Assembly (NCBI GenBank): GCA_035583355.1
Contig: DATEZQ010000004.1
Coordinates: 1-58,340, forward strand
Reading direction: 5' to 3'
From: Minisyncoccota bacterium
GTDB taxonomy: Bacteria > Patescibacteriota > Minisyncoccia > Phycocordibacterales > UBA6899
DNA: 58,340 bases
Shown: piece by piece, positions 29,586-53,218 of the stretch
Layout: each line of letters begins with the position of its first letter
Numbering within the stretch: the stretch's first letter is position 1
Translations under genes and position numbers: made by a program
Notes under the pieces: model-generated
What the model was told of the DNA's origin: nothing
Database searches by the model: none
What the model saw: only the letters and a program-made list of their open reading frames with translations

Positions 29586-29999
29586 TTATAGAGTATTCCC
29601 CCTTATATCCTTTTGCAAGTGTGCAGCATGCTCGTCCCACGGAATGAACTTCAACGATACCGAGTTCACACAGTGACGCACATTCTTCGGAGTCATCTGC
29701 TCATTGATAAATACATGTCCGAGATGTGCTCCACATTTTGCACAAACGATTTCCGTGCGCTCGCCATCAGGGTCAGGATTATGAATCACTGCACCTGGTA
29801 TTTCCGCATCGAATGCAGGCCAACCACATCCCGCTTCGAATTTATCTTCGGAACGATAAAGTGGTGTCTCGCACTGACGACAAACATATGTGCCACCTTC
29901 AAAGAATTTGTCATATTTTCCTGTAAACGGAGACTCCGTCCCCTTCTCGATGATCACATGACGCTCTTCTGGTGTGAGCGGATTGAGTTTCATTTCCAT
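29586..29999 (-). CDS. msrB: Peptide-methionine (R)-S-oxide reductase
   Basis: CRQC...CAKCGAHLGHVF zinc and catalytic motifs, plus GCGWPAF. Confidence 0.9.
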   Translation of the reverse strand: MEMKLNPLTPEERHVIIEKGTESPFTGKYDKFFEGGTYVCRQCETPLYRSEDKFEAGCGWPAFDAEIPGAVIHNPDPDGERTEIVCAKCGAHLGHVFINEQMTPKNVRHCVNSVSLKFIPWDEHAAHLQKDIRGNTL

Positions 30000-30001
30000 A
30001 T

Positions 30002-30487
30002 TTAGAGATAACTTTCAAAGCGAATAAAATGACAAGTGTAACCATCAGGATTCTTCTGCAAATAATCCTGGTGGTAGTCTTCAGCGACGTAGAACTTCGT
30101 GAATGGTTCAAGAGTCGTCACGACGGGATCCTTCCATCGACCTGACTTATTTACAAGCATAATGAAATCTTCTGCTTCCTTCTTCTCTGCATCATCCGCA
30201 TAGAATATAGCCGAGCGATATGATGTCCCCACATCACCTCCCTGCCGATTCAGTGTTGTTGGGTCGTGAATCTGAAAGAAGAAATCGAGTAGCTGTTTAT
30301 ACGAGGTCTTTGTATCATCATAGGAAATACGCACCGCCTCAGCATGGCCTGTATGCTTCTCATAGGTCGGATCGATCTCGGAGCCACCAGTATAACCAAC
30401 CTCAGTACCCACAACACCCTCACGCTTGCGAATAAGTTCTTCCATGCCCCAAAAGCATCCTCCCGAAAATACAGCTTGCTTTATCAT
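30002..30487 (-). CDS. msrA: Peptide-methionine (S)-S-oxide reductase
   Basis: GGCFWGME active site. ATG 30487 is preferred over the track start (TTG 30523) because TGCTATACT lies 6 nt upstream. Confidence 0.9.
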
Positions 30488-41757: not shown

Positions 41758-42070
41758 CTCCGGCGGCAGGATTCGAACCTGCGACCAATACGTTACTCAT
41801 GTTCACTGCTTTCGTAGTGGGAGGACTATATCATCACCCTTCTTTCGAGTGGGGTGCGAGGCGCTTCCCGTCCTAGATAAATCTAAGATAGTACTCCTTG
41901 CGGATAGTCTCTGAACCTTCGATGTGATTACTCACAAAGCTTGGCTGCTGATCGCCCTCGTCTTTCTCGTTAGGGTTTCCAGCAATTCACCTCGTTATTC
42001 ACCATTTCATTACTGAGATGGGCTGCGTTTAACGCCACAGCGTACTGCTCTACCGCTGAGCTACACCGGA
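41758..42070 (-). tRNA. tRNA-Asn(GUU) interrupted by a group I intron (exons 42070-42037 and 41795-41758)
   Basis: The spliced 72-nt product has acceptor TCCGGTG/CGCCGGA, D arm GCTC-AGCGGTA-GAGC, anticodon stem GTACG/CGTAT, loop CTGTTAA, T arm GCAGG-TTCGAAT-CCTGC and discriminator G. CCA is not encoded. Confidence 0.85.
41796..42036 (-). ncRNA. Group I self-splicing intron (IC3-like), 241 nt, in the anticodon loop between positions 35 and 36
   Basis: Core elements GGTTCAGAGACTATCCG and GATGATATAGTCCTC (P7 GACTAT/ATAGTC), plus GAAACCCTAA and GCCAAGC. In P1, exon GCUGU pairs with intron GCAGC, with U-G at the splice site. In P10, intron CGUUA pairs with exon-2 UAACG. The terminal nucleotide is G. 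Confidence 0.85.
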
Positions 42071-42143
42071 ATACACATAAAACACTCATTCCAAAAGAGG
42101 AATGTGTTCAGAGAATACCAAAAAATGCTCATATTTGCAAGTC

Positions 42144-42470: not shown

Positions 42471-42575
42471 ACTATACTAAGTATACCATTATCCGTGAAA
42501 CGAGGCATTGCTTTTTCCCAAATCTATTGTAGTTTCAAAGTAGATACTGTATTACTCTACAAGGAGAAAGCCCAC

Positions 42576-43463
42576 ATGGGTAAAGTTCCCGCTCGTGACC
42601 TCATTCTCGTCCGCCACCTGCCTTCGGTCGCCAACAAGGCGATCCATGAGATCATCCAAGAGCACGCGTTCCACATGAGTGAGCTACTCAGGCGCGTCCC
42701 CCATCCGCAATACCGTCTGACCCAAGAGGGTGCGGACAAGGGTGTTGAAATCGGAGAATTCCTCCGTAGCGAATTTCCCAAAATCGACTGGTGCTACAGC
42801 TCCGACATGGATCGCGCCATCGAAACCGCACTCATTTTCACCCCTCGCGGCGCATACTACGAACCTGAAGATCGATATCTAGGATTCCAGATCACAGGAC
42901 GCTTGCGTGAACGTTTCTGGGGTGACCTCGAACAGCCCGGCTGGAAACATGCAGAGCTCGTCGAAGAGCACCGCAAAATCCGCGAGGGTGTAGATACCTT
43001 CGAACTCAAACTGCCTAACGGCGAAAAACTTGCAGTACGTAGGATCGAAGACATCTTCACCTGGGTGCCCCCCAATGGCGAACCCTTCGTGGTGACCCAG
43101 GGCCGCGCGTGCGATGTGCTTCGGGATGCACATGCTCGAAAATTCAAGAACCCGTGCTTCTATACACATGGTGACTGGATTCTCGCAGCCATGTCCGTTC
43201 TCGAGAACAAGACGAGCCTCGACACCAACGGCAAGTACCTCTGGCGTGATCGTATTCCCGACAATGGATCGATCATCCACTACCATGTGGGCGAACTCGA
43301 CGAAGATAATCCGAAGGCGCACAATCCCTTCTACTTCGAATGGGTTCGCGAGACGAGCAGAGATCATCCGACCGAGTTCGGACCTGTGCGAGAAATTCGC
43401 CACAGCTGTCGCACTCCTGAGGAAATGTGGGCGTTCATCAATCAGCATCCGCGCATTCTCTAG
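42576..43463 (+). CDS. Histidine phosphatase family protein (divergent PGAM-like)
   Basis: LILVRHLPS (RH motif), RLRERFWGDLE, and a second His in FYTHGDW. AAGGAG lies upstream of ATG 42576; the track ORF starts at 42495. GC3-rich. Confidence 0.65.
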   Translation: MGKVPARDLILVRHLPSVANKAIHEIIQEHAFHMSELLRRVPHPQYRLTQEGADKGVEIGEFLRSEFPKIDWCYSSDMDRAIETALIFTPRGAYYEPEDRYLGFQITGRLRERFWGDLEQPGWKHAELVEEHRKIREGVDTFELKLPNGEKLAVRRIEDIFTWVPPNGEPFVVTQGRACDVLRDAHARKFKNPCFYTHGDWILAAMSVLENKTSLDTNGKYLWRDRIPDNGSIIHYHVGELDEDNPKAHNPFYFEWVRETSRDHPTEFGPVREIRHSCRTPEEMWAFINQHPRIL

Positions 43464-43468
43464 TTACC

Positions 43469-43492
43469 AAAGAGGCCTTCGGGCCTCTTTTT
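43469..43492 (+). terminator. Intrinsic terminator
   Basis: aagaggcc-ttcg-ggcctctt then TTT. Confidence 0.85.
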
Positions 43493-43529
43493 ATAAAAAT
43501 GTTTCTACTTTATTTACTTACTCGTTCCA

Positions 43530-43538
43530 TGCTATAAT
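43530..43538 (+). promoter_or_regulatory. Extended -10 TGCTATAAT, 10 nt before ATG 43549
   Basis: caTGCTATAATattttatagtATG. It has the same CATGCTATAAT as the other pilin gene. Confidence 0.55.
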
Positions 43539-43548
43539 ATTTTATAGT

Positions 43549-44073
43549 ATGGACGAATTCAAGTCATCACATAAAAGCAGCAATGGCTTCACAATCCCTG
43601 AGCTCCTCATCGTCGTCTCGGCGATCGCACTCCTCTCTTCTATTGTCATCGCCGCACTCATGCGTGCGCGCGAGCGTGCTTTTGTTGCGCGCATGGGCTC
43701 CGACTTCGCACAAATTAATCGTGCGGTCGAAGCATATCGTACACAAAACTCCAACTCCCCATGTATTGATGCAGACATGACGAGCAATGATATGACCGAC
43801 ACCTACGAGAAAGGCGCACTTGTCGGTTACTACACTTGGCCAAAGACTCCTTTCAATAATGACTACTACCTCGGATATACAGGAACGCCTGGCAACCCCT
43901 CCGCAAGTAATAATTACTACATCGGCATCATCATGCCCTCAGACATTGCACTCATTTTTGATCGGCTCTATGACGACGGAAACCTCGGTACTGGACTATT
44001 CAAATACAATGCAACCCCGCTTCCCCACTACGAGTATTTCCTCAATTACGTCATCACAGGAGACCACTGCTAA
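43549..44073 (+). CDS. Type IV pilin-like protein (prepilin N-terminal domain)
   Basis: MDEFKSSHKSSNG|FTIPELLIVVSAIALLSS. It is in frame with, but much shorter than, the 319-aa track ORF 43114..44073. Confidence 0.75.
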   Translation: MDEFKSSHKSSNGFTIPELLIVVSAIALLSSIVIAALMRARERAFVARMGSDFAQINRAVEAYRTQNSNSPCIDADMTSNDMTDTYEKGALVGYYTWPKTPFNNDYYLGYTGTPGNPSASNNYYIGIIMPSDIALIFDRLYDDGNLGTGLFKYNATPLPHYEYFLNYVITGDHC

Positions 44074-44131: not shown

Positions 44132-45811
44132 ATGGCAAAAAAGACAATCATACAGCATGCTGTCTTTGGCGGGGCCTACGCGTCACATGCCGCGCCTGTG
44201 TTTTCGCGCATCGTCGGCGTACTCTCAGTGTCCCTCGGAAACACACCTACAAACGGAACACCTTTTGTCCATATCAATTTTGACGACACACTCACCTCAT
44301 ACACAAAACTCGTCGAACTCTACATCACCCTCACACTGCAATCAAAAAATACTCCGGTAATTATTTACCCATACAACACCCCACAAAGAGAAGAGCTTAG
44401 TAAACTTTTCTCAACCGATCGAATGAAGTTTCCTCCTCAAGAAGTATTACTCGAAACGTTTTCAGACTTTACTGGACAAGAACGCATCCCTCCCCCGCCG
44501 CTCGATATTCTCCTCTATCTCGCACGCCCCGACGAAGCGAGTGTACGTCTAATGACAAAAGAAGGTGCGGTTGCGGAACTGGAGGAAACGAAACGCGCGG
44601 TACTCAATCTTCTCGAGGATACTCGAGAATCTGAAGAGAAAATCACCGCACAAGCCGCTGACTTAGCAAAGGCGCTTGAAGATTCGCGAGCATTTGCACG
44701 ATCTGCAGAGGAAGAACGCGCGACCTACCACCAGCTCGTTTCTTCTATTGGAGAAGGCGTCATTGTACTTGGTGCGGATGGACTCATAAAAATCGTGAAT
44801 GATGTGACGGTCTCTATGATTGGCGAGCCAAGAGAATCACTCATCAACAAAGATCCCGTTGCTGCACTACATTTGCGCGATAGAGAGCGCAATGAACTTC
44901 CTCAAGAATACTGGGATGCGATTCTCAAAACTGAAAAGACGATCACGCTCCCCATTCTCACAAGCGTTCGTAACGATGGCACAGTTATTTATGCTTCAAG
45001 CATTGCCGCTCCCATCGTAAACGAAACAACAAAAGAGCACAAAGGAATCATCATTACCTTTCGTAATATCAGTGAAGATTTTGCGCTCGACGAGGCGCGA
45101 ACAAATTTCATCTCCACTGCATCACATCAGTTGCGTACACCACTGACCACGATTCGCTGGTTCATTGAAATGCTTCAAAGTGGTGATGCTGGCGCGCTCA
45201 CTGAAGGCCAGAAACAATACCTCCATCAAATCGATGAGGGCATCGCACGCATGATCAACCTAGTTGGTTTCCTATTGCGTACGGCAAGAGTTGAAACAAA
45301 CAGAGTGATCATCACTCCAAAGCCACTCTCACTCCGTAAGGCAATCGAAGCCTGTGTGTCTGAGCTTATGCCACGCCTAAAAAACAAGAAGCAGACAGTA
45401 TCAATCGCCGGCGACGACCTCCCCGAAATTCCTCTCGATCCTGACTATGTCCATGAGGTGTTTCTAACGATTCTTATGAACGCGCAGCTTTATGGCATCC
45501 CCGGAGACACAATATATGTACAATTAGAGCGAAGTGGAAATTTCGTAGAGGTACATATTACCGATCACGGAATGGGTATTGCCCAGGATGAACGCAAGCG
45601 TGTCTTCGATAAATTCTTTCGCTCAAACAAGGCTATTGTCGCCTCCCCTGATGGCTCGGGGCTTGGACTCTCCCTTGTACGCATGCTCGTTTCTGACTGG
45701 GGCGGGAATGTATGGTTCGAGAGCGAGGAGGACAAAGGTACAACCTTTTCCGTCTCCATCCCCGTCTCGGGCATGAATGCACGCGAAGGTGAAGTTACTC
45801 TGCTCGAGTAG
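44132..45811 (+). CDS. Cytoplasmic sensor histidine kinase: degenerate MsrA-like N-domain, coiled coil, PAS, HisKA, HATPase_c
   Basis: H box FISTASHQLRTPL, N box LMNAQLYG, G1 DHGMGI, G2 GSGLGLSL. No TM helix. Residues 1-100 align with this window's own MsrA but lack GCFW. Confidence 0.85.
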   Translation: MAKKTIIQHAVFGGAYASHAAPVFSRIVGVLSVSLGNTPTNGTPFVHINFDDTLTSYTKLVELYITLTLQSKNTPVIIYPYNTPQREELSKLFSTDRMKFPPQEVLLETFSDFTGQERIPPPPLDILLYLARPDEASVRLMTKEGAVAELEETKRAVLNLLEDTRESEEKITAQAADLAKALEDSRAFARSAEEERATYHQLVSSIGEGVIVLGADGLIKIVNDVTVSMIGEPRESLINKDPVAALHLRDRERNELPQEYWDAILKTEKTITLPILTSVRNDGTVIYASSIAAPIVNETTKEHKGIIITFRNISEDFALDEARTNFISTASHQLRTPLTTIRWFIEMLQSGDAGALTEGQKQYLHQIDEGIARMINLVGFLLRTARVETNRVIITPKPLSLRKAIEACVSELMPRLKNKKQTVSIAGDDLPEIPLDPDYVHEVFLTILMNAQLYGIPGDTIYVQLERSGNFVEVHITDHGMGIAQDERKRVFDKFFRSNKAIVASPDGSGLGLSLVRMLVSDWGGNVWFESEEDKGTTFSVSIPVSGMNAREGEVTLLE

Positions 45812-47660: not shown

Positions 47661-49145
47661 CTACTCCACGTGCACCACCGCAGTAGTATTTTCATTCTTT
47701 ATCTTGAGCGTAAGCGCAGTGAGCGCTCCGACCAATATCACTACGGCAGCAAGTACATATACATCCTTATACGCATTAATCTGCGCTTTCAGTATGATGA
47801 GTTTAATGTATGTTGCAATCGTAGTTGGATCAGTAGTGTGCAACGTACTCCAATGATTGATTGTAAGCACATTGCGCTCAATCGACTTTGTGAGATATGT
47901 TGCAAAGATTGCAATACCAAAGGCTCCTGCAATGTTTCGTACGAGTGCGAGGAGTGAAGATGCGATTCCTATTTCATGTGGATCAACGAGCGACGCGATA
48001 ATATTCGTACGTTGTGCCATTCCAAGGCCTAGACCAAATGCCATCACCATCAGTGGAAAGATAAGGTCGAGTGCAGTAGACTTCGCATCAATACCAACAA
48101 AGAGAAATGTTCCAATTGCCGCAATCAATGTGCTCCAAAAGATGACCATACGCGAAGAAATCTTTCCTGTGAGATTCCCTCCGATGACCGATGCGGACAT
48201 CATTGCAACCACCATCGGCATAAAGAGGAATCCCGTCTCTGTCGCAGTGTATCCAAGAAAGGTTTGTGCGAAGACGGGGAGCAAGAACATACTCCCCATC
48301 ATACCCATGAATACAATGAAGTTATTCATGAGCACATTGACGAATGCGGGAATCTTGAAGAATTTCAGGTCGACAATAGGCTCTTCATGATTGCGCTCAA
48401 TATAGACGAAGAGAACTAAGAAGATTGCAGTCACTGCGTAAGAGAGCAGGCTATAGGCCGACAACCACCCCCAGCTAAGTCCCTTCTCTAGGACGAGCAC
48501 AAGCGCCGACAGGGACACACCGAGCGAAATCGCACCCCACCAATCGAATGACTTCGTCTTCACATCTGAACGAGACTCATGGATATAACGCATGGCCATA
48601 TAGATTCCAAGAATTCCGATTGGAAGATTGATAAGGAACACTGACCTCCATCCAAAGATATCGATGAGTGGACCACCAAGGAGTGGGCCAAACACGGCGG
48701 CGGCGGCAAAAGAACCCGACCAAATACCGAGCGCCTTCGCACGGTCCTTACCTTCTTTGAAGGTAACTGCAATGATTGCCATTGCGGTTGGATAGTCCGC
48801 CGATCCCGCGATCGCCTGAATGACGCGAAATACGATCATCGATGAAAGATTCCACGCGAAGCCCGCGAGTACGGACCCCAGAATGAAAATCGAGAATCCA
48901 ATCAAATAGACTTTCTTTCTTCCGATGGTATCTCCGAGCTTTCCCCAAATAGGGACGAAAATCGCATTCGCGAGAATATATGCTGTAGAAATCCAGCCCG
49001 CTGAGGTCACCGTAATACCGAATGTATCGATCATCTTCGGCAATGCGAGATTGACGATAGTCTGATCAAGCCTTCCCAAGAATGTACCAACAATGACCGT
49101 CAAAAGGACCATCCACTTTAATTTTTCTTGAGACTTTTCGCTCAT
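47661..49145 (-). CDS. MFS transporter, DHA2 (EmrB/QacA-type, 14 TMS)
   Basis: 494 aa with about 14 helices. MFS motif A GKLGDTIGRKK and motif C-like segments. Confidence 0.85.
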   Translation of the reverse strand: MSEKSQEKLKWMVLLTVIVGTFLGRLDQTIVNLALPKMIDTFGITVTSAGWISTAYILANAIFVPIWGKLGDTIGRKKVYLIGFSIFILGSVLAGFAWNLSSMIVFRVIQAIAGSADYPTAMAIIAVTFKEGKDRAKALGIWSGSFAAAAVFGPLLGGPLIDIFGWRSVFLINLPIGILGIYMAMRYIHESRSDVKTKSFDWWGAISLGVSLSALVLVLEKGLSWGWLSAYSLLSYAVTAIFLVLFVYIERNHEEPIVDLKFFKIPAFVNVLMNNFIVFMGMMGSMFLLPVFAQTFLGYTATETGFLFMPMVVAMMSASVIGGNLTGKISSRMVIFWSTLIAAIGTFLFVGIDAKSTALDLIFPLMVMAFGLGLGMAQRTNIIASLVDPHEIGIASSLLALVRNIAGAFGIAIFATYLTKSIERNVLTINHWSTLHTTDPTTIATYIKLIILKAQINAYKDVYVLAAVVILVGALTALTLKIKNENTTAVVHVE

Positions 49146-49148
49146 AGA

Positions 49149-49802
49149 CTAGTTCGCAAATACCGTGATTTTCGCGGACATACCCTGTTTGAGCATTGGG
49201 TACCTCGTTCCATCAAAACTCACCTTGATATCAAATTGCTTCACTTCACGCTTGTCTGAGATGTTGAACATCACACCACTCTGATTCGACATCGGACTGA
49301 TGTACGACACGTAACCTTCAAAGCGCTTGCTGCCGAATGCATCAACCGTGAATGTTGCGGGTTGCCCAATCTTGAGATCAACAAGACCTTTATCTTCATC
49401 GATCTTTCCTAATACCTTCTCCTCTTTTGTATTAATCATCGACACAATCGGTGCTCCAGGATTGAAGTACTGCCCCTCCTGGTGATTCACTGAAACGATG
49501 AGCCCAGCAACTTTTGTGAAGATAAGCTCATTGCCCACCTTTGCGACCGCAGTGTTCTCGGTTACGGTATCACCTGCATTGACGTAAATTTCCGCGAGCA
49601 CACCCGGCGCAGTCGGTGAAAGATTAATGATTGGTGCCTCAATTGAAGAATTCTCGATGGAGATCTTCTTCCACTCCATGCGCCAATAGGTGAATCCTGC
49701 GAGTAAAACGAGAATGATCACGATACCAATAATACTTTTCATCCATGGTTGCTTAACGATGCTTTCCTTGAGCAACAACTCCTCTACTTTCTTTGTTTCC
49801 AT
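49149..49802 (-). CDS. HlyD-family membrane fusion protein (short, no long coiled coil)
   Basis: N-terminal TM helix, a lipoyl-like hairpin (GVLAEIYVNAGDTVTENTAVAKV) and a beta-barrel segment. Confidence 0.65.
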   Translation of the reverse strand: METKKVEELLLKESIVKQPWMKSIIGIVIILVLLAGFTYWRMEWKKISIENSSIEAPIINLSPTAPGVLAEIYVNAGDTVTENTAVAKVGNELIFTKVAGLIVSVNHQEGQYFNPGAPIVSMINTKEEKVLGKIDEDKGLVDLKIGQPATFTVDAFGSKRFEGYVSYISPMSNQSGVMFNISDKREVKQFDIKVSFDGTRYPMLKQGMSAKITVFAN

Positions 49803-49810
49803 AATATTGG

Positions 49811-50902
49811 TTATTTCTTTACGACCATACTGATAATACGTTGATTCATAACCGCAATCTCGCCTGCCTTGATATTGAGTACGGTTACTACACCATCCTC
49901 TGGAGCAAAAATGAAGTTGTTATTGTATGCGCCTTCGGCCACTCGGAGTGCACCGCTTGCTGCTTCTACTCCAGCCTTTGCGATGGAAACATCTTCAGGT
50001 CGTGCAGCAGCTTGCTTTGCGGCGAGAATACTCTTGGCCTGATCGAGCGCAGCACTCGCATCAGCGACCATCTGTTCCTTCACGCGAAGCGCAGACTGAT
50101 ATGCATTGTAATTCGCAAGATAGTTCGGAGCCTTCTTATTTGGGAGCGTGATTGTCCAGTTTTCGTACTGAATCGTCTTATCACCAGTGAATTTAATATA
50201 TAGGCCTGAATCTGCAATCGGCTGCTCATTAATCATATTAATCTGACCCGTTCCCGTCGCCATGCCTGTAGCATAAAACGAGATACCACCAGTACTATGG
50301 AAGAACTTGAGGTTGATTGTACCCTCCTTTCCAAGATTGTAGGTACCACTGATGACCGGCGCGAGGTAGTCACTCGTATCATTTGCAGGGAATGCCTGGA
50401 CGGTCGAATTGAGCAAATTGAAGTATGCATTCTTCACAATGACCTCCTGTGTCTCCCTGGTTTTGTCATAATTGTTTTCTGCGCGCACGACGGCAGCCTT
50501 GAGGACATCGATATCTGGCCCTGTGGCACCATTCAGAATCTTCTCATAATTCGCTTGCGCAACAGCAAGCGCACCACGCGCCTGATTCACCATTCCTTGC
50601 GCATCAATCGCATCGAGGCTTGCGAGTACATCTCCCTTCTTGACGATATCGCCCACCTTGACGCTTACTGCATTTACGCGTCCACCCTTCGGAAATGCAA
50701 GATTCACCTCATCGCCATCGCGATAGCCACCAAAAATAGAGGCTGTTTTCGTATCACCCAACTCCATATTCACCACTGGTGCAATGCCAACATTCTTATA
50801 GATATATACCCCAGCAAGTCCTGCCAAAAGTGCAGTCACTGTAATGACACGAGTAGGCTTATTGAGTACACGTATTAACTTTTGTTTCATAGAATTATTC
50901 AT
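49811..50902 (-). CDS. HlyD/efflux periplasmic-adaptor family protein
   Basis: N-terminal anchor, a lipoyl motif (VKVGDIVKKGDVLASLD), alpha-hairpin repeats, and a second lipoyl half (VTVLNIKAGEIA). Confidence 0.65.
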   Translation of the reverse strand: MNNSMKQKLIRVLNKPTRVITVTALLAGLAGVYIYKNVGIAPVVNMELGDTKTASIFGGYRDGDEVNLAFPKGGRVNAVSVKVGDIVKKGDVLASLDAIDAQGMVNQARGALAVAQANYEKILNGATGPDIDVLKAAVVRAENNYDKTRETQEVIVKNAYFNLLNSTVQAFPANDTSDYLAPVISGTYNLGKEGTINLKFFHSTGGISFYATGMATGTGQINMINEQPIADSGLYIKFTGDKTIQYENWTITLPNKKAPNYLANYNAYQSALRVKEQMVADASAALDQAKSILAAKQAAARPEDVSIAKAGVEAASGALRVAEGAYNNNFIFAPEDGVVTVLNIKAGEIAVMNQRIISMVVKK

Positions 50903-51308
50903 TGATGATCTTATTTAGTATTTTGCTCAGCGATTCCTTGTCTTCGTTATTCAACTTCGAGAACAAGTTTTTCAAAATGACCAGTTTCGCGTCTTTTAGC
51001 GAGGAGAATGCCTTGAACGTCTTTGGGGCAACAACAACACGCACGATGCGGCGATCGTTCTCATCGACTTCCCTCTTTAAGAATCCATTGTCGCAAAGCG
51101 GTTCCACAATACTCGTCACTGACGGTGGTGTGATATTGAGCGCAGCGGCAATATCCTTCATCGTGGGGTTTTCATTTTCCGAAACGAATTGAAGCACTTG
51201 GAGTTGCGATGGCGTGAAGTGCAGTCGCTCTGCTTCCTTATGAAGCTCACTGATGAGCTTACGGTGAAAGCCGAGGATGGTGTTTTCGAGATCTTTTTCC
51301 GTTATCAT
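50895..51308 (-). CDS. MarR family transcriptional regulator
   Basis: Winged-helix core LTPSQLQVLQFV...MKDIAAALNITPPSVTSIVEPL...DRR. Its stop overlaps the next gene's start by 8 nt. Confidence 0.85.
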   Translation of the reverse strand: MITEKDLENTILGFHRKLISELHKEAERLHFTPSQLQVLQFVSENENPTMKDIAAALNITPPSVTSIVEPLCDNGFLKREVDENDRRIVRVVVAPKTFKAFSSLKDAKLVILKNLFSKLNNEDKESLSKILNKIINE

Positions 51309-51314
51309 GAATTA

Positions 51315-51327
51315 TTAGTTTAACTAA
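51315..51327. promoter_or_regulatory. 13-bp perfect palindrome TTAGTTTAACTAA, candidate MarR operator
   Basis: Centred 13 nt upstream of the marR ATG (51308), in the only intergenic space of the operon. Confidence 0.4.
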
Positions 51328-51379
51328 CTATTAGACAAACTTAACATTGAATACTTTGCGTGTCAACGATGCTTATACA

Positions 51380-51408
51380 CAAAAACGGGCCTGCATGACG
51401 CAGGCCCG
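51380..51408 (-). terminator. Intrinsic terminator after hybrid kinase gene
   Basis: cgggcctgc-atgac-gcaggcccg, with TTTTTGTG downstream on the minus strand. Confidence 0.85.
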
Positions 51409-51415
51409 GTAATAT

Positions 51416-53218
51416 TCAATTCTTCTCTGATGCGCTCGCCATCGCCTCACCAATTACCCTTGAAAGGCTTTTTATGGTATAGGGTTTTGGCAGTGACGCC
51501 TTGAAACCTGTAGGGATGCGATCAGAGTACCCACTGGAAATGATTGCAATAAGCTCGGGATTAATCTCGAGCAAACGCTTGAGCGTCTCCTCTCCCCCCA
51601 TACCTCCAGGAATCGTCAGATCGAGAATAACGAGATCGAAGGGTTCACCACTGAATGCGGTGGACTGATAGATCTCAATCGCCTCAACCCCATGACTTGC
51701 AACGGTGACCTTGTGCCCCAACATTGCGAGCGCCTCGGTAAGCACCTCCTGCATTGCCCGATCATCATCCATCGCAAGGATCTTGCATGGACGCGACACA
51801 ATAGACTTTTCTACTCGTTCAGGGACAGGCTGGGCATCAGGACCAAGGGCAGGCAAATAAATACAGAACGTTGTCCCCTTCCCCTCCTTTGAGTTCACGA
51901 TGATTTTTCCATGGTGTTTTTCAATGATGCGATACACCACAGAGAGACCTAAGCCAGAACCTGCTCTTTCACCTTTTGTAGTGAAGTACGGCTCGAAAAT
52001 CCTCTCGATGTACTTATCAGGAATCCCAATTCCTTTGTCGATGACCGAGATATGAATATAGTCACCTCGAACTTGAACCGCTTCCGGGTCAACAGCATTC
52101 TTCGCCAGGATGCGTATCTTTCCACCATCAGGCATAGCCTGGTTCGCATTCAGGACTAGATTTTGGATTACTTGACCAATCTGCGACGCATCGATATCAG
52201 CAAGCCAAAGATCATCCGAAAGCTCGAGCTCACAGACAGATTTCGATCCTTTGCCGATAATAAACTCGGCCGATTCGCGAATCACCTGTGCAACCGATGT
52301 TGTCTTTGTGCAAGGAATACCTCCACGTGCAAACGCGAGTAGCTGCTGCGTCAAACCTGTCGCGCGCTCAGTCGCTTTCACAATTGCATCAAGCGACCCT
52401 CGCTGTTGGTCGTCCCGAGAAGTCATGCTTGCCATTGAGGCTTGCGCCATGATTGCGGTCAAGATGTTGTTGAAATCATGCGCAATACCACCAGCAAGAA
52501 TTCCAAGCGATTCAAGCTTTTGCAACTTTGAGCGCTCCTCACCCGCCATGCGATACTTCGTGATATCAGCAACATGTCCGTGCCAAAGGATTCCACCATC
52601 CTCCTCCAATTCTGGAGTTGAATGACTGAGAAGCCATTTAATCGGCTGACCGGGGAGCTTAATACGAAATTCCTTCTGCCGCAAACTAAGGTTCGCAGCA
52701 GAGAGTTCAAATGACTCAATGAGGCTTTGGTAGTCCTCGGGAAGAACCACATTCCCGATAGGGTCATAGCATTCGAACACCTGTTCGGGGCGGCATCCAA
52801 AAATCTCATAGATTCCTTCTGTGGTAAATGGGACTGAATAGGTCCCATCAGGTCTGCGCCTGAATTGAAATACCACACCAGGAATATGCGAAATGAGCTT
52901 ATGAAAGCGCACCTCATTCTCCCGCAGTACGCGCTGCGCTCTATTGCGCTCTGCAATAAAACTATTTTCGCGCTGTTTGATGTAATACGCGACCAAACCA
53001 ACAATCGCCACGACAAACAAAATCGTATAGAGCCGTGATTCAATGATGGTAATTCCGGGGCGAATCGTATGCTGCATCCATTCGAATACAGTCATGACTA
53101 CAAGCGCAAACAACATGCTTGCCAGCACGATATACGGAGTATTTCGACTACTGGAAAGACGGACAAAATTCAACTTCCTAGGCATACAACACCACACTTT
53201 CTCGAGCAGTGCTCGCAT
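51416..53218 (-). CDS. Hybrid sensor histidine kinase / response regulator (2 TM, PAS, HisKA, HATPase_c, REC)
   Basis: GGIAHDFNNILTAI H box, NLVLNANQAM, DKGIGI, GSGLGLSVV. C-terminal REC domain (KILAMDDD...DLVILDLTIPGG). Confidence 0.85.
   Translation of the reverse strand: MRALLEKVWCCMPRKLNFVRLSSSRNTPYIVLASMLFALVVMTVFEWMQHTIRPGITIIESRLYTILFVVAIVGLVAYYIKQRENSFIAERNRAQRVLRENEVRFHKLISHIPGVVFQFRRRPDGTYSVPFTTEGIYEIFGCRPEQVFECYDPIGNVVLPEDYQSLIESFELSAANLSLRQKEFRIKLPGQPIKWLLSHSTPELEEDGGILWHGHVADITKYRMAGEERSKLQKLESLGILAGGIAHDFNNILTAIMAQASMASMTSRDDQQRGSLDAIVKATERATGLTQQLLAFARGGIPCTKTTSVAQVIRESAEFIIGKGSKSVCELELSDDLWLADIDASQIGQVIQNLVLNANQAMPDGGKIRILAKNAVDPEAVQVRGDYIHISVIDKGIGIPDKYIERIFEPYFTTKGERAGSGLGLSVVYRIIEKHHGKIIVNSKEGKGTTFCIYLPALGPDAQPVPERVEKSIVSRPCKILAMDDDRAMQEVLTEALAMLGHKVTVASHGVEAIEIYQSTAFSGEPFDLVILDLTIPGGMGGEETLKRLLEINPELIAIISSGYSDRIPTGFKASLPKPYTIKSLSRVIGEAMASASEKN

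What the first reader, a model, noticed from the sequence alone, without database searches (positions are those of the whole stretch)
44132..44440. Histidine kinase whose N-terminal sensor is a catalytically dead MsrA-like domain
Residues 1-100 of the soluble kinase align with the window's own MsrA (30002..30487). AVFGGAYASHAAPVFSRIVGVLSVSLGNT matches [51 protein letters not shown] matches [38 protein letters not shown] matches [18 protein letters not shown]. The catalytic GCFW cysteine is replaced (GAYA) and about 10-15 residues around GHAE are missing. This looks like an enzyme fold recruited as a ligand-binding input, perhaps for methionine sulfoxide or oxidised peptides. It is followed by a coiled coil, PAS and a fully canonical HisKA/HATPase core. 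I do not know of a described MsrA-sensor kinase.
Basis: seen in the sequence. Interest (0 to 1): 0.65.

Follow-up and report, generated by a model that had tools for sequence, protein, structure and literature searches.

The report
Dead MsrA-like domain on a kinase
A soluble bacterial sensor kinase carries at its front end a stripped-down, catalytically dead copy of the repair enzyme MsrA, a very rare and undescribed input-type domain whose signal is unknown and is probably not methionine sulfoxide.

Summary
The ORF at 44132..45811 (+) encodes a 559-aa kinase with no TM segment. Its first ~120 residues are a genuine but highly degenerate homologue of MsrA.

- **Sequence evidence:** BLASTP against the window's own MsrA gives 30.8 bits; the Smith-Waterman score beats 5000 shuffles. 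hhalign of an 11-member family profile against an MsrA alignment gives 95 % probability over 110 columns, about 14 SD above column-shuffled controls. PF01625 is the only Pfam family any member touches.
- **Structure evidence:** A confident AF2 model (pLDDT 83.5) finds MsrA structures as its top PDB fold matches (TM 0.67).
- **Loss of function:** Cys, Phe/Trp, Tyr, Glu and Tyr of the MsrA active site are substituted or deleted in all members, and no Cys is conserved. The domain cannot be a reductase, and canonical Met-SO binding is unlikely.
- **Position:** It sits where paralogues carry TM+HAMP. In a second architecture it connects through a coiled coil directly to HisKA, without PAS.
- **Rarity:** Three 50 %-identity clusters among 1.84 billion representatives, all kinases, apparently from CPR-like groundwater bacteria.
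- **Prior description:** No Pfam or NCBIfam model and no paper found.

Verdict: a new variant of a known kind (sensor kinase with a novel enzyme-derived N-terminal domain). The signal is unknown. The Met-SO idea is not supported.

The parts
44132..45811 (+). Whole gene: 559-aa histidine kinase with no predicted TM segment (MsrA-like domain, junction, coiled coil, PAS, HisKA, HATPase_c)
   Evidence: ORF list; Pfam domains; 9 full-length orthologues at 44-75 % identity with the same start; no TM segment by hydropathy
44132..44491 (+). Degenerate, catalytically dead MsrA-like domain (residues 1-120; homology-supported core 7-117 = 44150..44482)
   Evidence: hhalign 95 %, 110 columns, with shuffle control; AF2 pLDDT 83.5, pTM 0.78; Foldseek top hits are MsrA, TMq 0.67; PF01625 is the only Pfam family touched; catalytic residues lost
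44492..44557 (+). Family-specific junction (residues 121-142) holding the conserved LLYLAxPDEA motif (L130, A131, E135 invariant)
   Evidence: Invariant in all 11 members of both architectures. TM+HAMP paralogues align only from residue 147. Low AF2 confidence here
44558..44719 (+). Long helix (residues 143-196), presumed signalling coiled coil of the dimer
   Evidence: AF2 helix 143-196, low pLDDT as a monomer; conserved TKRAxLNLLED segment
44726..45076 (+). PAS domain (residues 199-315)
   Evidence: PF00989 31.9 bits against a cut-off of 22.6; AF2 PAS-like alpha/beta unit
45095..45298 (+). HisKA/DHp (residues 322-389); phospho-acceptor His332 at 45125..45127
   Evidence: PF00512 60.1 bits; SHQLRTP invariant
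45437..45766 (+). HATPase_c catalytic domain (residues 436-545) with N, G1, F and G2 boxes
   Evidence: PF02518 79.3 bits; N450, D478-x-G480-x-G482, F495/F496 and G508-x-G510-L-G512 invariant
43549..44073 (+). Pilin-like gene (174 aa, class III signal G|FTIPELL, two invariant Cys), 58 nt upstream on the same strand; conserved partner of the PAS-form kinase
   Evidence: N_methyl/T2SSG weak Pfam hits; the same gene pair occurs in the window and in the 5 related PAS-form contexts retrieved; alignment A5
30002..30487 (-). The window's genuine msrA (161 aa, short type), used as the comparison sequence; not part of the kinase locus
   Evidence: PF01625 E=2.9e-60; C11, Y42, E50 and Y90 invariant in 28 relatives

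Best explanation
The gene encodes an orphan class-I (HisKA-type) sensor histidine kinase with no predicted membrane segment. It comes from an uncultivated bacterium that looks CPR/Patescibacteria-like.

Residues ~6-120 are a pared-down descendant of peptide-methionine (S)-S-oxide reductase (MsrA). The ferredoxin-like beta-alpha-beta-beta-alpha-beta-alpha core and its fold-defining residues are kept (G29, G36, D51, Y79, F113, corresponding to MsrA G24, G31, D57, Y96, F132). The active-site loops are excised and all catalytic and substrate-binding residues are lost. The domain is therefore a pseudoenzyme module.

Shown: homology to MsrA, loss of the active site, conservation as a family, and position in the input slot.

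Inferred: the domain acts as the N-terminal input or regulatory module. A change in it, from binding an unknown ligand or partner, would pass through the conserved LLYLAxPDEA junction and the long coiled-coil helix to PAS and DHp, and would tune autophosphorylation of His332.

The signal is probably not methionine sulfoxide and cannot be thiol redox chemistry. The conserved pairing with a pilin-like gene (PAS form), or with a receiver plus a DsbA-like gene (PAS-less form), points loosely to a cell-surface or pilus circuit.
For: - **Homology:** BLASTP 30.8 bits. SW 63 against a shuffle maximum of 51, p~1e-5. hhalign 95.1-95.2 %, E~3e-8, 87-110 columns. 150 column-shuffles gave mean 12.9 and maximum 23.6 against 52.4; the reversed profile gave 9.5. 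PF01625 is the only Pfam family hit by any of 11 members at E<=10. With filters off, the domain HMM scores all 120 lineage MsrAs, up to 26 bits.
- **Fold:** AF2 pLDDT 83.5, pTM 0.78. The same secondary structure appears in the full-length model. The best Foldseek PDB matches are MsrA: 5fa9 TMq 0.67-0.68, rmsd 2.5-2.6; also 2j89, 3pim, 3bqe. Non-MsrA ferredoxin-like hits reach TMq <=0.42.
- **Dead enzyme:** residue mapping, using the catalytic set from PMC6210582.
- **Input slot:** the paralogue P0012 (TM+HAMP) aligns only from residue 147. PAS-less members P0018 and P0241 join the domain through the coiled coil directly to HisKA.
- **Real, selected family:** 13 sequences at 27-58 % identity in the domain, with invariant core residues.
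- **Intact kinase core:**
Against: - **Sensory role unsupported directly:** No ligand, pocket or conserved polar cluster could be shown, because model coordinates cannot be inspected with these tools.
- **Alternative sensor:** The PAS domain could be the real sensor in the 559-aa form.
- **Sequence searches that fail:** Pfam PF01625 does not reach significance (best E 0.084). HMMER against PDB sequences finds no MsrA.
- **Weak structural statistics:** Foldseek E-values are weak (0.017-0.2; none <=0.001).
- **Thin alignments:** The MsrA alignment used for hhalign has low diversity (Neff ~1.9), and the AF2 alignment has only 9 sequences.
- **No partner in the window:** No cognate response regulator lies next to the gene.
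Confidence: 0.6

Rival explanations
1. The MsrA-like domain is not a sensor. It is a structural, dimerisation or partner-docking cap at the N-terminus of the coiled coil. Signal perception is done by the PAS domain or by an accessory protein.
For: No conserved candidate binding residues beyond the fold core. The PAS domain is well conserved. The domain evolves faster than the kinase core: ~55 % against ~70 % identity.
Against: In the 420-aa members the domain is the only module upstream of DHp. Faster evolution is typical of sensor modules. The junction motif to the signalling helix is invariant, which suggests coupling.
Confidence: 0.22
2. One reading: the dead MsrA domain still binds methionine sulfoxide or oxidised peptides, and so reports oxidative protein damage to the kinase.
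For: MsrA ancestry. Genuine msrA-msrB genes lie in the same genome region, 14 kb away.
Against: All residues that bind the sulfoxide oxygen (Tyr/Glu/Tyr) or the methyl group (Phe/Trp) are substituted or deleted in every member. Three active-site loops are excised. There is no gene-neighbourhood link to msr genes beyond synteny among close relatives.
Confidence: 0.07
3. The resemblance is convergent. The domain is a generic ferredoxin-like (ACT/RAM-like) small domain with no MsrA ancestry.
For: The MsrA core is a ferredoxin-like beta-alpha-beta-beta-alpha-beta unit. Foldseek also lists S6, MupZ, AcrB subdomains and similar. Pfam and PDB sequence searches are not significant.
Against: Motif-level sequence matches fall in order along the whole domain. 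The hhalign score is ~14 SD above shuffles. PF01625 is the only Pfam family seen. MsrA hits have much higher TM (0.55-0.68) than the other ferredoxin-like hits (<=0.42).
Confidence: 0.08
4. Artefact: a decayed msrA pseudogene fused in-frame to a kinase by mis-assembly or a wrong start codon.
For: None beyond the low sequence identity to MsrA.
Against: The same start, length and domain appear in independent assemblies from several samples and sources. Core residues are conserved. The predicted fold is confident.
Confidence: 0.01

Closest known systems
MsrA, peptide-methionine (S)-S-oxide reductase (Pfam PF01625 PMSR; e.g. PDB 5fa9, 2j89, 3pim, 3bqe)
   Same: Same predicted fold and the same order of secondary-structure elements. 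Shared core motifs (AVF-GG, GV-x-V-x-G, V-x-I-x-[FY]-DD-T-x-TSY-x-x-L, I-[IF]-Y-x-x-x-x-x-x-E). Profile-profile homology of 95 %.
   Different: No catalytic Cys. No Phe/Trp methyl pocket. No Tyr/Glu/Tyr sulfoxide-binding triad. Three loop deletions of 11, 6 and 5 residues. No C-terminal recycling-Cys tail. About 115 residues instead of ~150-160. Fused to a kinase. Below the Pfam threshold.
Multidomain Msr proteins (Neisseria PilB Trx-MsrA-MsrB; Treponema MsrAB)
   Same: Show that the MsrA fold can be used as a module inside larger proteins.
   Different: There the MsrA module is a fully active enzyme fused to other redox enzymes. Here it is inactive and fused to a signalling output.
PAS-HisKA-HATPase kinases of the PhoR/WalK/PnpS type
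   Same: The kinase core (residues ~160-545) matches these NCBIfam models at E 1e-47 to 1e-58. PAS, H-box and N/G1/F/G2 boxes are canonical.
   Different: All scores fall far below the equivalog cut-offs. There are no TM segments, HAMP or extracytoplasmic sensor. The N-terminal module is unique.
Enzyme-derived or enzyme-related sensor modules in bacterial signalling (own knowledge, e.g. fRMsr, which is a GAF fold acting as a free Met-R-SO reductase)
   Same: Same general principle of exchange between enzyme folds and sensor folds.
   Different: In fRMsr a sensor fold is used as an Msr enzyme. Here an Msr enzyme fold is used as a presumptive sensor or regulatory module. No MsrA-fold example was found in the literature searched.
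PilS-PilR pilin-responsive two-component system (own knowledge)
   Same: A histidine kinase genetically linked to a pilin-like gene.
   Different: PilS senses pilin inside the membrane through its TM segments. This kinase has no TM segment and no adjacent PilR-type regulator. The link is gene adjacency only.

Membership tests
MsrA / PMSR (PF01625) | Matches the Pfam PF01625 profile at the gathering score (23.7 bits) | tested here: not met
   No hit for the window protein at E<=10. Among 11 family members, 2 hit weakly, best E 0.084.
MsrA / PMSR (PF01625) | Catalytic Cys in the GCFWG motif at the N-terminus of helix 1 | tested here: not met
   MsrA C11 aligns with Tyr16; the family column reads Y/F/N/R/A/G. 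No Cys is conserved anywhere in the domain.
MsrA / PMSR (PF01625) | Sulfoxide-binding and acid-catalysis residues Tyr82/Glu94/Tyr134 (N. meningitidis numbering, PMC6210582) and the Phe/Trp methyl pocket | tested here: not met
   Y42 is deleted, E50 is replaced by Pro/Thr/Val/Asp, Y90 by Asn/Asp/Ser and others, and F12/W13 by Ala/Ser and others.
MsrA / PMSR (PF01625) | MsrA three-dimensional fold | tested here: met
   For a predicted model only: the AF2 model (pLDDT 83.5) has MsrA structures as its best PDB matches, TMq 0.55-0.68, probability 0.84-1.00, but Foldseek E is only 0.017-0.2.
MsrA / PMSR (PF01625) | Detectable common ancestry (profile-profile homology) | tested here: met
   hhalign 95 %, 110 columns, score 52.4 against a shuffle maximum of 23.6.
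MsrA / PMSR (PF01625) | Met-SO reductase activity | not testable with these tools
   Predicted absent because no nucleophile is present. An enzyme assay is needed.
Class I (HisKA) sensor histidine kinase | HisKA/DHp domain with a phospho-acceptor His in the H-box | tested here: met
   PF00512 60.1 bits against a cut-off of 26.9. S-H332-Q-L-R-T-P is invariant.
Class I (HisKA) sensor histidine kinase | HATPase_c domain with N, G1, F and G2 boxes | tested here: met
   PF02518 79.3 bits. N450, DxGxG 478-482, FFR 495-497 and GxGLGL 508-513 are invariant.
Class I (HisKA) sensor histidine kinase | Cognate response regulator encoded nearby | tested here: not met
   No receiver gene is adjacent in the window. 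The nearest receiver is part of a hybrid kinase at 51416..53218. The PAS-less relatives do have an adjacent stand-alone receiver.
PAS domain | Matches the PF00989 PAS profile above the cut-off | tested here: met
   31.9 bits against 22.6, residues 199-313.
PilS-type pilin-sensing kinase | Multiple TM segments that contact pilin in the membrane, with a PilR partner | tested here: not met
   The maximum 19-residue hydropathy is 1.45, so there is no TM segment. No adjacent regulator.

The most novel reading that the evidence does not exclude
The MsrA-derived domain is a previously unrecognised class of cytoplasmic signal-input domain. It would have arisen within a CPR lineage by duplication and stripping of the lineage's own short MsrA. 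It would bind a specific ligand or partner linked to the conserved pilin-like / DsbA-like neighbours, for example reporting pilin or pilus-assembly status. That would make this a new type of pilus- or envelope-sensing two-component system in episymbiotic bacteria.
Probability: 0.15. Interest if true: 0.65.

Novelty: new variant of a known kind. Interest (0 to 1): 0.45.

Why it matters
- **Evolution of sensor modules:** It would add the MsrA fold to the small list of enzyme folds turned into signalling modules. It also shows a clear route: loop excision plus loss of all catalytic residues, with the core kept.
- **Annotation:** It defines a new domain family with no Pfam or NCBIfam model. These proteins are currently labelled only 'PAS domain S-box protein' or 'histidine kinase'.
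- **Biology of CPR bacteria:** Regulatory circuits in CPR/Patescibacteria are almost unknown. The conserved pairing with a pilin-like gene gives a testable handle.
- **Limits:** The family is tiny (about 13 sequences), no signal is known, and the general idea of pseudoenzyme sensor domains is not new.

Tried and rejected
- **Word-indexed homologue search with the N-terminal 138 aa alone:** nothing found. Orthologues were found only with the full-length query.
- **phmmer and family-profile hmmsearch against PDB sequences:** no MsrA at E<=10, only noise hits (glycosyltransferase, VisC).
- **Pfam on the single sequence:** no hit. **NCBIfam:** no model for the domain.
- **Genome-contig scan with the domain alignment:** 57 pattern matches, none confirmed. 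The retry with P0007 found only its own MAG, labelled 'bacterium isolate SKS1.bin43', plus unrelated kinases.
- **tblastn of the stand-alone receivers from L002/L012 against the window:** no hit at 1e-3.
- **Promoter and terminator scan around the gene:** not above shuffle expectation, so no statement on co-transcription with the pilin-like gene.
- **Pilin leader as a recognised peptide:** considered and set aside, because the leader is not conserved among orthologues.
- **Cys- or Met-based redox sensing in the domain:** considered and rejected, because no Cys or Met is conserved.
- **Literature searches** for an MsrA pseudoenzyme, MsrA-like sensor, or PMSR in kinase architectures: nothing relevant.

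Full report
**What is at the coordinates.** The finding (44132..44440) is the 5' fifth of an ORF at 44132..45811 on the + strand, encoding 559 aa. Pfam finds PAS (residues 199-313, 31.9 bits), HisKA (322-389, 60.1 bits) and HATPase_c (436-545, 79.3 bits). It finds nothing for residues 1-138, even at E<=10. The window's MsrA is at 30002..30487 (-), 161 aa, PF01625 E=2.9e-60. An MsrB-like ORF lies directly downstream of it. The kinase has no TM segment: the maximum 19-residue Kyte-Doolittle value is 1.45, inside the PAS sheet.

**Is the similarity more than chance?**
- *Pairwise.* BLASTP of residues 1-138 against the window MsrA gives 30.8 bits with 19/73 identical residues. The Smith-Waterman score is 63. 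None of 5000 shuffles exceeded 51, and the Gumbel p is ~1.3e-5.
- *Orthologues.* A full-length search found nine orthologues (P0002-P0010, 44-75 % identity, full coverage) that share the N-terminal region.
- *Profile-profile.* A profile of that region against an alignment of 28 MsrAs gives hhalign probability 95.1 % over 87 columns. Adding two more distant members gives 95.2 % over 110 columns, HK 7-117 against MsrA 2-136.
- *Control.* 150 column-shuffled query profiles scored mean 12.9, SD 2.8, maximum 23.6, against the real 52.4. The reversed profile scored 9.5.
- *Family libraries.* Scanning all 11 domain sequences against Pfam at E<=10, the only family hit by any member is PF01625 (2 members, best E 0.084). 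NCBIfam has no model for the domain.
- *What failed.* Ordinary HMMER searches of PDB sequences did not find MsrA. The relationship is therefore remote and visible only at profile-profile and fold level.

**Fold.** AF2 on the 9-sequence domain alignment gave a confident model: pLDDT 83.5, pTM 0.78, with order beta7-13, alpha17-24, beta30-37, beta44-51, alpha57-70, beta76-79, alpha83-95, beta105-107, beta117-119. The same elements reappear in the full-length model.

Foldseek against the PDB ranks MsrA structures first: 5fa9_A/B (TMq 0.67-0.68, rmsd 2.5-2.6 Å, 125 columns, probability 1.00), 2j89 (0.60), 3pim/3pin (0.55-0.58) and 3bqe (0.54). Other ferredoxin-like proteins reach only TMq <=0.42. 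The caveats are that the Foldseek E-values are modest (0.017-0.2) and the alignment behind the model is shallow.

**A dead enzyme.** The review PMC6210582 gives Cys51 as the catalytic cysteine, Glu94 as the acid catalyst, and Tyr82/Tyr134 as proton donors in N. meningitidis MsrA. By motif (GCFWG, PTY, GHAE, SYRS), these correspond to C11, Y42, E50 and Y90 of the window MsrA. All four are invariant in its 28 relatives.

Through the hhalign alignment:

| MsrA residue | Position in the kinase domain | Family column |
|---|---|---|
| C11 | Tyr16 | Y/F/N/R/A/G |
| F12 / W13 | Ala17 / Ser18 | not conserved |
| Y42 | inside an 11-residue deletion (MsrA I38-H48) | deleted |
| E50 | Pro44 | P/T/V/D |
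| D85 | inside a 5-residue deletion | deleted |
| Y90 | Asn73 | variable |

No Cys or Met is conserved anywhere in the domain. The MsrA C-terminal tail, which carries Cys152, has no counterpart. What is kept are fold-core positions: G24 → G29, G31 → G36, D57 → D51, Y96 → Y79, F132 → F113. The domain therefore cannot reduce Met-SO.

**Distribution and architectures.** An exhaustive hmmsearch of 1.84 billion cluster representatives with the domain profile found only three clusters: P0006 (this family), P0008, and P0241 at E=1.6e-5.

P0241 and P0018 are 420-aa kinases. In them the same domain and the same junction (…ILAILAHPGEA…) lead through the coiled coil directly to HisKA, with no PAS. The closest paralogues without the domain (e.g. 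P0012, 705 aa, with HAMP) align only from residue 147 onward. The MsrA-like domain therefore occupies the slot that a TM sensor plus HAMP occupies in paralogues.

The junction residues L130, A131 and E135 are invariant across both architectures.

Named homologues of the kinase core and of the MsrA come from Candidatus Daviesbacteria, Yonathbacteria, Parcubacteria, Berkelbacteria, Moraniibacteriota and Wolfebacteria. One relative comes from a groundwater metagenome. Placing the window in a CPR/Patescibacteria-like bacterium is an inference from these names.

**Context.** In the window the kinase follows a pilin-like gene at 43549..44073. That gene has a class III signal (G|FTIPELL) and gives weak N_methyl and T2SSG hits. 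The gap is 58 nt and both genes are on the same strand.

The same pair is found in the window and in all five related PAS-form contexts retrieved (L001/L003 being one locus, L011, L013, L014, L015). These include members only 44-47 % identical. The pilin-like proteins are orthologous and have two invariant Cys, but their leader peptides are not conserved.

Downstream genes vary: DAGK, NUDIX, LigB-like, then an MFS/HlyD/MarR cluster and a hybrid kinase-receiver.

The two PAS-less members are each transcribed divergently from a stand-alone receiver (150-153 aa) that lies next to a DsbA/thioredoxin-like gene. No homologue of that receiver is present in the window.

**Interpretation.**
- *Shown:* MsrA ancestry and fold, loss of the active site, conservation as a small family, an intact kinase core, and position in the input slot.
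- *Inferred:* the domain regulates the kinase through the conserved junction and signalling helix. The strongest argument is the PAS-less architecture, where it is the only module upstream of DHp.
- *Unknown:* the signal.

Met-SO sensing is disfavoured, and thiol or Met redox sensing in the domain is excluded by composition. The main rival is a purely structural or docking role. Convergence to a generic ferredoxin-like fold is unlikely given the ordered sequence motifs and the shuffle control. An assembly artefact is excluded by independent contigs.

**Novelty.** No Pfam or NCBIfam model covers the domain. Full-text searches found no paper describing a catalytically dead MsrA domain or an MsrA-type kinase input. 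The kinase itself is ordinary, and the principle of enzyme-derived sensor modules is known. I therefore rate this a new variant of a known kind, of moderate interest.

Noticed in passing
window 41758..42070 (-): A tRNA gene is interrupted in its anticodon loop by a group I intron (Rfam RF00028, 67.3 bits, 41803..42072). ARAGORN reports no tRNA in the whole window. In-silico splicing gives a valid tRNA; the junctions that obey the exon-U / intron-G rule give Asn(GUU) or Thr(AGU).
   Followed up: partly
window 43549..44073 (+), and L001 7419-7943, L011 7430-7942, L013 2805-3329, L014 295-807, L015 547-1077: A pilin-like gene (170-178 aa; G|FT[IL]xELL signal; two invariant Cys; variable leader) lies immediately upstream, on the same strand, of every PAS-form MsrA-like kinase examined. 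This holds even at ~45 % kinase identity, so it is a conserved gene pair of unknown meaning.
   Followed up: partly
L002 514-1888 and L012 5064-6490: The PAS-less MsrA-like kinases are each divergent from a stand-alone receiver (150-153 aa) that sits next to a DsbA/Thioredoxin_4-like protein of ~270 aa. The arrangement is conserved in both contigs.
   Followed up: partly
window 29586..30487 (-): The genuine msrA (30002..30487) is followed 2 nt downstream by an msrB-like ORF (29586..29999, CxxC...CxxC, GWPAF motif). This is an msrA-msrB pair about 14 kb from the kinase. Contig lengths suggest relatives P0123 and P0124 share contigs with kinases P0002 and P0007.
   Followed up: no
window 47661..53218 (-): An efflux-type cluster runs MFS_1 transporter (494 aa), two HlyD/membrane-fusion-like proteins, a MarR regulator (50895..51308), then a hybrid PAS-HisKA-HATPase-receiver kinase (51416..53218). 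It is syntenic in L001 and L011.
   Followed up: no
window 42495..43463 (+): A histidine-phosphatase-superfamily (His_Phos_1) gene lies upstream of the pilin-like gene and is also present in L013. The mechanical ORF 43114..44073 overlaps it, but its true start is most likely the ATG at 43549.
   Followed up: no
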